This document shows positions 1,396 through 18,410 of a stretch of DNA of 27,419 nt, in pieces (within the stretch, counting starts at the first letter, position 1; each line of letters opens with the position of its first letter). Below the pieces are notes generated by a model. The model was not told where the DNA came from and ran no database searches. It saw only the letters and a list, made by a program, of their open reading frames with translations. A program made the position numbers and the translations under genes. The stretch is from the IMG/VR virus record IMGVR_UViG_3300020045_005886, positions 1 through 27,419 of that record; one strand, 5' to 3'. The DNA is from a virus (Duplodnaviria > Caudoviricetes).

Positions 1396-1466
1396 TGCGG
1401 GGTGTTTTAACGGTAGAATATCTGGCCCGTTACCCGAAGATGTAAGTTCAATTCTTACCCCCGCTT
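1396..1466 (+). tRNA. Degenerate tRNA or tRNA-like RNA resembling initiator tRNA-fMet; anticodon position reads CGT
   Basis: Acceptor GCGGGG/CCCCGC with a T1:T72 mismatch; D-loop GG; anticodon arm TCTGG-CCCGTTA-CCCGA; perfect T arm GTAAG-TTCAATT-CTTAC; followed by CCCA. Confidence 0.65.
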
Positions 1467-16393: not shown

Positions 16394-17518
16394 TTATGCT
16401 GTTTTGTTTTTTAATTTGTTTTCAATGGCAAACATTATACCCTGTGCGGTTCCTGCTGCTTTTACTGCATCCTGGCTGATTGACACATCCTCGATCTTAT
16501 TGGACACCTTACTCAATGGCAGGTCTTCAATAAGTTTCTTTGTACCATCAAAATCAGTTACTGCCAGTGCTTTCCATTTAGATATTGTTTCGGCATCATT
16601 TTTAATACGGCCAACTTTTGCGAAGGCTGTAACCATTGTTACTGCTTTTTCTTCAGCGGCAACGGTTGCATCTTCTTCAGCTTTATCTGTTATATCTTTC
16701 AACTTAGCTTCAACTTCAGTAACCTTTTTTGCGCTTTCTTCCAGAGCGTCTTTGGCGGTTTTTAATTCGCCTTCAAGCTTCGTTTTTTCAGAAGCGGCGG
16801 TATTGGTAACCTCTGTTAACTTATTTTCAATGGCATCAATAGCTGAGATGATTGCATCTTCGCTGGCTTCTGCATTAAGATTAAGTTTTGCGGTAATTTT
16901 TTTCATATCGTTTGTATTTTTGAAAACATTGTTTACAATATCAGTGGCGACACCCCACATTATCCGGGCATCATTAACGGCTGCCATCCTTTTACGGTTA
17001 AGCTCATTCGATGCAACAACCTCCGTACAAAACCCTTTCTCAAAACATTCAGATGATTTTATCCATGATGTTTTTTCCATAAGGTAGCCAACGGCATCAG
17101 CAGTTAAAGAACTCTTTGCTGAAAGCATTGTTGCAATAGAATCCCTTAAAGATTCAAGTGCTTTTTTGTCATCGCTACCTGCAGGGTTATGTAACATAAG
17201 TTTTGCATAATCGGCCATGTACCTTTTACGCCCGGCCATAAAACAAACTCCACCCATTGAGGCTGCTATTCCAACATTATGCGTATCAACAGGGGTTTTT
17301 GATTTTAATATGGCATTGTAGATTGACATTCCCTCAATCACATTCCCGCCGGGGCAGTTAATATAGACATGGATTGTTTTTTTACCCATGTTATCCAGGG
17401 CTAATAATTCAGCAGCAAAAGCGCTGCCATCAATACCCGCACCGTCTTCAGGATCGAACCCGATGTGCTTATCCAGCATCATTATCGGTTCATCTATGTT
17501 GGGATTAATGCAATACAT
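16394..17518 (-). CDS. ClpP-like prohead protease fused to a coiled-coil scaffold
   Basis: YINCPGG.V.EG..IYN, GIAASMG (catalytic Ser) and LMLHNP (His); C-terminal Ala/Glu/Lys-rich helical region. Confidence 0.9.
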   Translation of the reverse strand: MYCINPNIDEPIMMLDKHIGFDPEDGAGIDGSAFAAELLALDNMGKKTIHVYINCPGGNVIEGMSIYNAILKSKTPVDTHNVGIAASMGGVCFMAGRKRYMADYAKLMLHNPAGSDDKKALESLRDSIATMLSAKSSLTADAVGYLMEKTSWIKSSECFEKGFCTEVVASNELNRKRMAAVNDARIMWGVATDIVNNVFKNTNDMKKITAKLNLNAEASEDAIISAIDAIENKLTEVTNTAASEKTKLEGELKTAKDALEESAKKVTEVEAKLKDITDKAEEDATVAAEEKAVTMVTAFAKVGRIKNDAETISKWKALAVTDFDGTKKLIEDLPLSKVSNKIEDVSISQDAVKAAGTAQGIMFAIENKLKNKTA

Positions 17519-17530: not shown

Positions 17531-17609
17531 GTTACGTTGTATTACTAAGGTTGAAAAGTACCGTACCTTTTTAGGACCGGACTATAAAATACACCTCATT
17601 CTCATTAAC

Positions 17610-18105
17610 CGTATCATGGCAACAAGGCAATGAAAAAAGCCTATAATTAGTCCTTATGCTAAACAGGCACACAGGCCAACATAATGTATTTAAGAAAAAC
17701 CTTTGCCACTGGCGAAGATAAAATCGGAGATTATGGAGGAAAATGAACTTTTATTAATAGCAAAAGCTCTTAGATTAGAAGGCTGTAAATTTGCATCTTT
17801 AGAAATTGCTATGCAAAAAAATAATTCAGAATTATACTCTGATTATTTAAAAGAGTTTGAAAAAAGAAAACTGTCTATACAAAATGAGTTAGATAGTATA
17901 GACACTATATTGAATGAACTATCTCTAAATCCTTAACAGCGTTTTCAAGTATTTTAATTATTTCGCCCTTGTGGGGCGATGCTCCGCAGTTTTTTTTCTT
18001 AAATACATTCACAAAACCAACGCTACGCAGCAAACCTGCTTTAACATAACGCATTTTCATTATAGTCTTTTTCATTTTATATAGTTTTTATGTTGCCATG
18101 ATACG
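17610..18105. repeat. Long interrupted inverted repeat (four blocks) flanking an inserted ORF
   Basis: 17610-17624 vs 18091-18105 (15/15); 17629-17647 vs 18059-18076; 17654-17667 vs 18035-18049; 17683-17699 vs 17993-18009 (17/17). Confidence 0.85.
17733..17936 (+). CDS. AT-rich helical hypothetical protein (67 aa), opposite to the late operon
   Basis: ORF track gives 17703..17936; ATG at 17733 (MEENELL...); lies wholly inside the loop of the inverted repeat. Confidence 0.55.
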   Translation: MEENELLLIAKALRLEGCKFASLEIAMQKNNSELYSDYLKEFEKRKLSIQNELDSIDTILNELSLNP

Positions 18106-18174
18106 ATTTTTCATTAAATTGCCACATGAAAAATCGTTATTTACCTTAGCTAAGATAACTCTTTATTCCGAAAT

Positions 18175-18202
18175 AAAAAACCCCGGCAACCAATAGCCGG
18201 GG
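18175..18202 (-). terminator. Rho-independent terminator
   Basis: Minus strand reads CCCCGGC-TATTGGTT-GCCGGGG-TTTTTT, 22 nt after the 18225 stop. Confidence 0.85.
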
Positions 18203-18224: not shown

Positions 18225-18410
18225 TTACTTATTTTGTAAAATCCTTTGTAATATTTCTGGCGGCTGACATGCTTTAAGCGCCTGGGCCGCTTCATTAACA
18301 GCCTTGCTTTCGCTGATATTATTAATCTTTGCATATCCTTTAATAAAAGTATTATTGCATGGCTTTAGATACCCTGTAACTGTTCTGTCTTTCATTGATT
18401 CTTTAGCCAT
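18225..18410 (-). CDS. Small basic protein, possibly ribbon-helix-helix DNA-binding
   Basis: ATG at 18410 (MAKESMKDRTVTGYLKP...YAKINNISESKAVNEA); strand-helix-helix pattern; last gene before the terminator. Confidence 0.5.
   Translation of the reverse strand: MAKESMKDRTVTGYLKPCNNTFIKGYAKINNISESKAVNEAAQALKACQPPEILQRILQNK

What the first reader, a model, noticed from the sequence alone, without database searches (positions are those of the whole stretch)
17610..18105. Gene cassette enclosed by a four-block interrupted inverted repeat (giant hairpin)
Seen: four collinear blocks pair across about 500 bp: CGTATCATGGCAACA (15/15), AATGAAAAA..CTATAAT, TTATGYTAAA(G)CAGG and AATGTATTTAAGAAAAA (17/17). 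The spacers differ in length and do not pair. Just inside each arm is a small hairpin ending GGCGAA (17702-17716 and 17963-17979). The ~290 nt loop holds an AT-rich 67 aa ORF opposite to the operon. One mismatch (C.A on plus) becomes G.U on the minus strand, weakly favouring a minus-strand RNA. The element sits between a terminator and the capsid operon start, and no recombinase or transposase is in the window. Inference: a structured ncRNA with an RNase III-type processing stem, a folded-ssDNA recombination cassette, an invertible segment, or a non-autonomous mobile element that swaps cargo genes.
Basis: partly seen in the sequence, partly recalled or inferred. Interest (0 to 1): 0.8.

Follow-up and report, generated by a model that had tools for sequence, protein, structure and literature searches.

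The report
Phage-borne hairpin cassette targeting bacterial dif
The giant hairpin is a 0.5-kb, one-gene cassette whose arms are two inverted copies of the bacterial chromosome-resolution site (dif); the same cassettes lie opened up in unrelated tailed phages and, end-joined, inside host dif sites, so phages likely deliver small genes into the chromosome through a predicted folded single-stranded circle and the host's own Xer recombinases.

Summary
The four-block inverted repeat is real. Blocks B and C of each arm form a dif-like site (XerC arm, spacer, XerD arm) with spacers of 7 and 10 nt instead of 6, the layout of the CTX phage attP1/attP2 pair. The same arms enclose different small genes in 17 other phage-type loci at several sites; close phage relatives lack them. 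One cargo family occurs in both states (76% identity). Crossover position and a conserved G.T wobble both point to the minus strand as the folded substrate. Best reading: a Rep-less, recombinase-less mini-IMEX that tailed phages carry and host XerC likely integrates at dif. How it leaves or enters the phage, and what the cargos do, is not shown; no circle was observed directly. Ten literature searches found no description.

The parts
17574..17609 (+). Left flank motif (LF), conserved beside the phage-borne form only; absent from chromosomal forms; function unknown
   Evidence: Aligned; one copy per phage locus, beside the element; also present in the element-free allele L318; absent in the L282 family
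17610..17624 (+). Block A, left end of the cassette; in chromosomal copies it follows the terminal hairpin directly
17636..17646 (+). XerC-arm-like half of the left dif-like site
   Evidence: same arm forms the hybrid 6-bp dif in L243
17647..17653 (+). 7-nt spacer of the left site (attP2-like); first three bases match the host dif spacer
17654..17664 (+). XerD-arm-like half of the left site, with a conserved C that gives a G.T pair only on the minus strand
   Evidence: 11 of 12 elements
17683..17699 (+). Block D, inner clamp of the fold (pairs with 17993-18009)
17702..17732 (+). Small hairpin and conserved leader before the cargo start codon
17733..17936 (+). Cargo gene, 67 aa, predicted two-helix hairpin, function unknown; exchangeable
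   Evidence: 61% identical to the L286 cargo; no family at threshold; five distant relatives of similar length or longer; model pLDDT 89
17962..17998 (+). Small hairpin and terminator-like stem with T run after the cargo
   Evidence: motif conserved across elements
17993..18009 (-). Block D, right copy
18039..18049 (-). XerD-arm-like half of the right dif-like site
18050..18059 (-). 10-nt spacer of the right site (attP1-like); the crossover in chromosomal copies lies at its border with the XerC arm (18059/18060)
18060..18070 (-). XerC-arm-like half of the right site (one mismatch to the left arm in this window)
18091..18105 (-). Block A, right copy
18103..18137 (.). Terminal hairpin (12-bp stem, 11-nt loop), right end of the cassette; joined to block A in chromosomal copies
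   Evidence: same joint in a contig of run X2 (record 8)
18138..18157 (+). Right flank motif (RF), phage-borne form only; contains a 10-bp palindrome; function unknown
18171..18202 (-). Context: terminator of the upstream phage operon
16394..17518 (-). Context: ClpP-type head maturation protease, first gene downstream of the element

Best explanation
It is a one-gene mobile cassette of about 530 nt whose arms are two inverted dif-like sites; it lies opened at its terminal hairpin in tailed phages and end-joined inside the dif site of Chitinophagaceae chromosomes, and it likely moves from phage to chromosome as a folded single-stranded circle that host XerC would integrate, as for the CTX phage. 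Shown by sequence: the two states, the crossover position, regeneration of a 6-bp dif, tandem stacking and cargo exchange. Inferred: (1) during phage replication the minus strand folds so that the terminal hairpin abuts stem A with free tails on both sides; (2) the tails are trimmed and the nick is filled and sealed, giving a closed rod-shaped circle (favoured route: general flap nucleases and ligase, because phage ends are ragged while chromosomal hairpins are perfect; a helper HUH nickase is not excluded); (3) XerC swaps one strand pair between the folded site and dif and replication resolves it; (4) each event restores dif, so cassettes pile up newest-first like an integron array; (5) cargos are swapped by recombination in the conserved arms. 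How a cassette first enters a phage, and what the cargos do, is unknown.
For: Dif-like sites with 6-7 nt and 7-10 nt spacers in 12 of 12 complete phage-type elements; XerC arms identical between arms in 11 of 12, over four sequence variants; C/T in the XerD arm in 11 of 12, 11 wobbles on minus and 0 on plus among 31 mismatches. Chromosomal copies read dif - right outer arm - hairpin - left arm - cargo - right inner arm - long spacer - foreign XerC arm (L243, L239, L245, L242, L247, L264); the L243 unit is 528 bp against 527 predicted from the window. In arrays the XerC arm after each long spacer matches the next cassette (L239 exact, L247 exact, L242 one mismatch). The 6-bp site is single in 3 of 5 genomes tested and is the one beside the cassette; 2 of 5 gave no match. 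It lies at or near the cumulative GC-skew peak in 2 of 2 contigs. G001 has xerC- and xerD-like genes. Hairpin stems extend 1-5 bp past the core in 14 of 14 phage-type loci and 12-18 bp in 12 of 13 chromosomal hairpins. Same cargo family in phage L236 and chromosome L242, 76% identity. Window arms are 84-96% identical to chromosomal arms. Insertion status: 6 of 44 phages at one locus and 0 of 11 protease relatives carry it. The hairpin-to-block-A joint preceded by a dif arm recurs in run X2. CTX mechanism: passages of PMC3442271 and PMC5357621.
Against: No free circle, no Xer binding or cleavage and no delivery event was observed. For most elements the strand that must join the host XerC arm pairs by one base and then has a G.A mismatch, whereas CTX needs pairing next to the cut. 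No releasing enzyme was found: 0 of 5 phage records have a tyrosine recombinase or reverse transcriptase, and 35 scanned phage ORFs gave no HUH nickase, but 4 of the 5 records are fragments. The window's own XerC arms carry a mismatch and L254 has a broken left arm, so some phage copies decay. Central stems are AT-rich and the MFE structure is rare in the ensemble. Both xer hits fall just under the NCBIfam cut-offs. The direction phage-to-chromosome rests on the argument that only the unopened state can refold the site.
Confidence: 0.7

Rival explanations
1. The element is the attP of the whole phage: the phage integrates at dif through the folded site, and the small chromosomal cassettes are footprints left after the phage body is deleted at the hairpin.
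For: The 92%-complete record G405 has no integrase. The product would have the same half-sites. In G425 the host dif has the same XerC arm and about 16 further bases as the element on a phage contig of the same genome.
Against: No case of dif - outer arm - hairpin - RF - phage genes among the hits; the LF-plus-block-A scan of genomes gave 5 hits, all chance. In G425 the element sits intact and unpermuted about 16 kb inside the phage contig. 38 of 44 related phages lack the element. A precise deletion would have to recur in every chromosomal case, with only 0-3 nt of overlap.
Confidence: 0.12
2. The cassettes are satellites of an ssDNA helper (microvirus, inovirus or similar at dif) whose HUH Rep nicks the terminal hairpin; tailed phages only capture dead-end copies.
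For: The hairpin core is conserved across otherwise different cassette families; ssDNA prophages at dif are described in Bacteroidota (PMC3091885, PMC9719478, passages); the loop is flipped in L295; all phage forms are opened at the hairpin.
Against: No Rep-like ORF seen by eye beside the five arrays mapped (not scanned for HUH profiles). Phage ends vary by several bases, unlike a nick site. Copying from hairpin to hairpin in an array would give mismatched XerC arms, yet 11 of 12 phage forms have matched arms.
Confidence: 0.12
3. The arms are a structured RNA (processing stem or reverse-transcription template), and the DNA copies at dif arise through a cDNA.
For: RNA fold z -6.7 on the minus strand, which is the phage sense strand on the RF side in the loci checked; G.U and G.T wobbles cannot be told apart.
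Against: Conserved blocks are Xer arms; no Rfam match; no RT in 5 phage records; a minus-strand RNA would give the plus-strand cDNA, the wrong strand for the observed crossover; a terminator-like site interrupts the plus strand.
Confidence: 0.04
4. It is a Xer-invertible segment or a decaying one-off inverted duplication.
For: Inverted dif-like pairs flank cargo as in Acinetobacter dif modules.
Against: Arms recur in 17 other phage-type loci and in chromosomes with covariation; no inverted cargo seen; spacers of 7 and 10 nt do not match each other.
Confidence: 0.02

Closest known systems
CTX-type IMEX of Vibrio cholerae (CTX phage, attP1/attP2 folded attP+)
   Same: Two inverted XerC/XerD site pairs with unequal, non-6-bp spacers; a fold that builds one site with an unpaired overlap; crossover on the XerC side; a new dif on one side and stacking in tandem; no own recombinase (PMC3442271, PMC5357621, bioRxiv 10.64898/2026.06.12.731946, passages).
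   Different: About 0.5 kb with one unrelated cargo gene; no Rep, repressor or virion genes; carried opened inside dsDNA tailed phages of three morphotypes; extra clamps and a terminal hairpin at which the ends are joined; Bacteroidota host; weak pairing of one exchanged strand.
Acinetobacter dif modules (pdif sites)
   Same: Cargo between inverted Xer sites, same module in different contexts; a hairpin-plus-replication route was proposed as hypothetical for them (PMC7399989, passages).
   Different: Spacers are 7 and 9-11 nt here; found in phages and at chromosomal dif, with no match in the plasmid collection; long non-Xer stems and a circularly permuted integrated state.
Integron gene cassettes (IntI, attI, attC)
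   Same: Single-ORF units, folded single-strand site, replicative resolution, arrays with the newest unit next to the target (integron features recalled; PMC5027507 seen only as a search listing).
   Different: Target is dif and the sites are Xer arms; the fold encloses the gene; no integrase gene seen beside the arrays mapped; each unit has its own terminator-like site.
Bacteroidota ssDNA prophages at dif (Alpavirinae microviruses, PhiCjT23-like)
   Same: Same phylum, dif target, no integrase; some have an extra dif-like site likened to CTX (PMC3091885, PMC9719478, passages).
   Different: Those are 6-8 kb viruses with Rep and capsid genes.
Phage morons
   Same: Extra AT-rich gene with own terminator inserted between structural genes, present in some relatives only (concept recalled).
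   Different: Bounded by paired Xer sites and found end-joined in host dif.

Membership tests
CTX-type IMEX | Two inverted XerC/XerD site pairs with non-canonical spacers | tested here: met
   7 and 10 nt in the window; 12 of 12 elements have both sites
CTX-type IMEX | One strand folds to pair the two sites, overlap left unpaired | tested here: met
   Predicted only: centroid pairs both arms on the minus strand; covarying XerC arms and strand-specific wobble
CTX-type IMEX | Integrated at chromosomal dif with a regenerated dif and crossover at the XerC border | tested here: met
CTX-type IMEX | Tandem arrays by successive integration | tested here: met
   L239, L242, L247
CTX-type IMEX | Both exchanged strands pair next to the XerC cut | tested here: inconclusive
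   three pairs for the host strand; one pair then G.A for the element strand in most variants
CTX-type IMEX | Dependence on XerC catalysis, not XerD catalysis | not testable with these tools
   Needs genetics or in vitro recombination
CTX phage / RS1-type replicons | Own rolling-circle Rep and ssDNA phage genes | tested here: not met
   The unit holds one unrelated 50-166 aa ORF with no Rep family
Acinetobacter dif module | Cargo between inverted Xer sites | tested here: met
Acinetobacter dif module | dif-like 11-6-11 sites (6-bp spacer of pdif recalled) | tested here: not met
   Right spacers 7-10 nt in 12 of 12; left 7 nt in 10 of 12 and 6 nt in 2
Acinetobacter dif module | Carried on plasmids | tested here: not met
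   No match in 72,556 plasmid records
Integron cassette | IntI and attI beside the array; attC site downstream of the ORF | tested here: not met
   Arrays begin at dif; ORF lists of five arrays show no integrase by eye
MITE / IS-derived element | Terminal inverted repeats with a fixed target duplication | tested here: inconclusive
   8-bp direct repeat around L238 only; none in the alignment of other ends
Known structured RNA | Rfam match at gathering threshold | tested here: not met
   Only a tRNA at 1396-1466 in the window

The most novel reading that the evidence does not exclude
Tailed phages write single genes into the host chromosome without lysogenising it: an enzyme-free hairpin cassette peels off the phage genome, closes into a rod-shaped single-stranded circle and is fixed at dif by host XerC, so dif arrays in Bacteroidota are an integron-like record of past infections and a phage-fed gene library, possibly conferring exclusion of competing phages.
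Probability: 0.45. Interest if true: 0.92.

Novelty: new variant of a known kind. Interest (0 to 1): 0.82.

Why it matters
It would be the smallest Xer-exploiting element I could find described or undescribed, with no protein for its own movement, and it links tailed phages to gene stockpiling at dif. It gives a natural, two-state test case for the hairpin-plus-replication route that was only proposed for dif modules spreading resistance genes in Acinetobacter (PMC7399989). A 0.5-kb, cargo-tolerant unit that targets one neutral site with host enzymes could also be a simple integration tool for Bacteroidota. Every step is testable with oligonucleotides and two purified recombinases.

Tried and rejected
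Block-D scan of viral contigs: 76 loci, 4 true members, the rest chance. Gapped block A-B scans: 22 viral and 120 genome loci, new members only L104 and L123. LF scan: 53 viral loci, 6 with the LF motif in context, no LF joined to RF, so no excision joint was found. LF-plus-A scan of genomes: 5 hits, all chance. No match in GenBank phages or PLSDB plasmids. LF as a repeated late promoter: rejected, one copy per locus. A Bacteroidota -7 promoter box in the hairpin loop (my early note, motif recalled) was a misreading; no cargo promoter was identified. Helitron and IS200/IS605 end signatures (recalled) are not conserved across ends. Cargo function: 23 cargos gave only weak, below-threshold Pfam and PADLOC hits; word search found only the window protein; Atlas gave no usable hit; distant relatives are unnamed or hypothetical; no fold search was run on the two-helix model. 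Sequencing runs: no RNA holder listed. Exact left-site pattern hit 2 of 401 family genomes, too strict for prevalence. Rows dropped: duplicate records of one element were collapsed (L283/L241/L249; L282/L284/L287); one spurious L245 row and locus L442 were set aside. Literature searches with no description of this element; the library lacks most subscription papers, and no supplements were read.

Full report
Setting. The window is the structural module of a myovirus-like phage, all on the minus strand: terminase, portal, head maturation protease, tail sheath and endolysin hits. The record is a 27,419-base viral contig. A Bacteroidota, probably Chitinophagaceae, host is inferred from the near-identity of the element's arms to copies in such chromosomes. 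The element lies between a terminator at 18181-18202 and the protease start at 17518.

Observation. The region folds far better than shuffles as RNA and as DNA, more so on the minus strand. Rfam gave nothing in the element.

It is an insertion with exchangeable cargo. None of 11 protease relatives has the arms upstream (one has only 31 bases upstream). Pattern scans found the same arms in 17 other phage-type loci after collapsing duplicates, two of them partial and one broken. Most flanks were judged phage by eye; G405 genes were scanned and L231 is not confirmed as phage. They lie before ClpP-type or HK97-type proteases, beside the head morphogenesis gene, or in a lysis region. At the head morphogenesis locus 6 of 44 related phages carry the element; the closest element-free relative (85% protein identity) lacks core and flanks; 2 of the 38 negatives had under 100 bases upstream. 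L037 and L019 have almost identical arms and flanks but unrelated cargos. Among 14 phage-type cargos only two pairs are clear homologs. Run X1 shows further copies with other inserts between the arms.

The arms are dif-like sites. Blocks B and C together read XerC arm, spacer, XerD arm. The XerD arm matches the dif consensus printed in PMC12715192 (passages). In 12 complete elements the left spacer is 7 nt (10) or 6 nt (2) and the right spacer 7-10 nt. The XerC arm is identical in both copies in 11 of 12 although it takes four different sequences; the window is the exception, with one mismatch. The XerD arms differ by C against T in 11 of 12, a wobble only on the minus strand; 20 other mismatches favour neither strand. 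The minus strand has the lower DNA energy in 10 of 12. CTX has the same layout: two inverted site pairs that fold into attP(+), are recombined by XerC alone and resolved by replication (PMC3442271 and PMC5357621, passages).

The second state. In Chitinophagaceae genomes the cassette is circularly permuted. L243 reads: 6-bp dif with the element's XerC arm, right outer arm, hairpin, left arm, cargo, right inner arm, 9-nt spacer, a different XerC arm. Its length is 528 bp; the window predicts 527. L239, L245, L242, L247, L264 and L449 follow the same plan, and a contig of run X2 has the same joint behind a dif arm. The crossover is always at the XerC-arm/spacer border of the right copy. XerC cuts the strand that reads XerC arm then XerD arm (recalled for E. 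coli; stated for the B. subtilis homolog), which for the right copy is the minus strand, in agreement with the wobble. In arrays the XerC arm after each long spacer belongs to the next, older cassette, as successive integration predicts. The target is the true dif: the 6-bp pattern occurs once in 3 of 5 genomes, each time beside the cassette, and not in the other 2; cumulative GC skew peaks at about 90 kb for a site at 92.3 kb and about 110 kb for a site at 122.0 kb, on noisy profiles; G001 has xerC- and xerD-like genes just under the cut-offs. A cargo of phage locus L236 is 76% identical to that of chromosomal cassette L242. The family is wider: 11 of 12 genome hits outside the Chitinophagaceae type have the same 7-nt site within 440 nt of a second dif-like site, and a sequence model hit 10 of 101 relatives of G001, some only at dif itself and one by chance.

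How the states connect. The permuted state needs an end-joined intermediate. In 14 of 14 phage-type loci the hairpin stem ends 1-5 bp past its core and runs into variable flank; in 12 of 13 chromosomal hairpins it continues perfectly for 12-18 bp into the left arm. In the minus-strand fold the hairpin abuts stem A with no base between and free tails on both sides. Trimming the tails and sealing the nick on the paired strand would give the perfect palindrome from ragged ends without any element-coded enzyme. This step is inference. No tyrosine recombinase or reverse transcriptase was found in 5 phage records, one 92% complete; 35 scanned ORFs gave a RecT-like protein and an HNH nuclease but no HUH nickase. 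One other carrier, G425:C5, does encode an IntI/XerA-like recombinase.

Against the reading. No circle or cleavage was seen. One exchanged strand pairs poorly with host dif. No excision joint was found; L318 has the left flank without core or right flank and may be a deletion or a pre-insertion allele. The whole-phage attP rival is not excluded, but no prophage was found between half-sites and the G425 phage copy is intact and internal while its host dif has a short scar with the same XerC arm. Cargo function is unknown; superinfection exclusion is a guess.

Comparison and novelty. It works like a CTX-type IMEX and meets the site, fold, product and array features, but it lacks Rep and virion genes, so it is not a member of the CTX phage or RS1 replicons. 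It resembles dif modules, for which a hairpin route was only proposed (PMC7399989, passages; 10.1101/2022.01.12.475240, passages), but fails the spacer and plasmid tests. Bacteroidota ssDNA prophages at dif are known (PMC3091885, PMC9719478, passages). Ten searches returned no description of Rep-less one-gene cassettes at dif or of their carriage by tailed phages; the library lacks most subscription papers. Earlier AI notes of this scan reached a similar view of dif cassette arrays in Bacteroidota (seen after my analysis); they are not independent support. What this window adds is the opened, phage-borne state and its exact permutation link to the chromosomal state. Verdict: new variant of a known kind, interest 0.82.

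Noticed in passing
L438/L450, L439, L232 1490-1680, L247 3013-3210; dif sites of L437, L440, L441, L443: A second cassette class at the same dif: the crossover appears to lie on the XerD side of the left copy, and spacers match dif on the XerD side. It would still use the minus strand. Suggests both Xer subunits are exploited.
   Followed up: partly
L295 (hairpin near 2115 in window orientation); L254 left arm: The hairpin loop is flipped in L295, with a compensatory change in block A; in L254 block A is fused to a reversed loop sequence and the left arm is lost.
   Followed up: no
L233, L236, L237, L238 right flanks: The right flank is a degenerate inverted copy of the left flank, with a covarying base, adding an outer stem beyond the terminal hairpin.
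   Followed up: partly
G425:C5 (L447 11946-12779; L453 last 80 bases): A 78-kb podovirus-like phage carries a three-gene cassette, an IntI/XerA-like recombinase, and at its contig end a lone XerD arm sharing 12 bases with the host dif; it may itself sit at dif through another site.
   Followed up: partly
window 18225-18410 (-): Conserved 61-aa ORF upstream of the element, next to the protease in element-free relatives; looks like a ribbon-helix-helix protein by eye, no family hit.
   Followed up: no
window 17905-18075 (-): An antisense ORF runs through the right arm in many elements with similar N-termini but shifting frames; probably a by-product of the conserved DNA.
   Followed up: no
window 1396-1466 (+): Rfam tRNA match, 40.5 bits, between lysis-region genes and opposite to them.
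   Followed up: no
L245 between dif and hairpin: About 115 extra bases, including an inverted repeat, inserted in the right outer arm.
   Followed up: no
L010, 150-330 bases upstream of the protease: A long degenerate inverted repeat upstream of a distant protease homolog, unrelated to this element.
   Followed up: no
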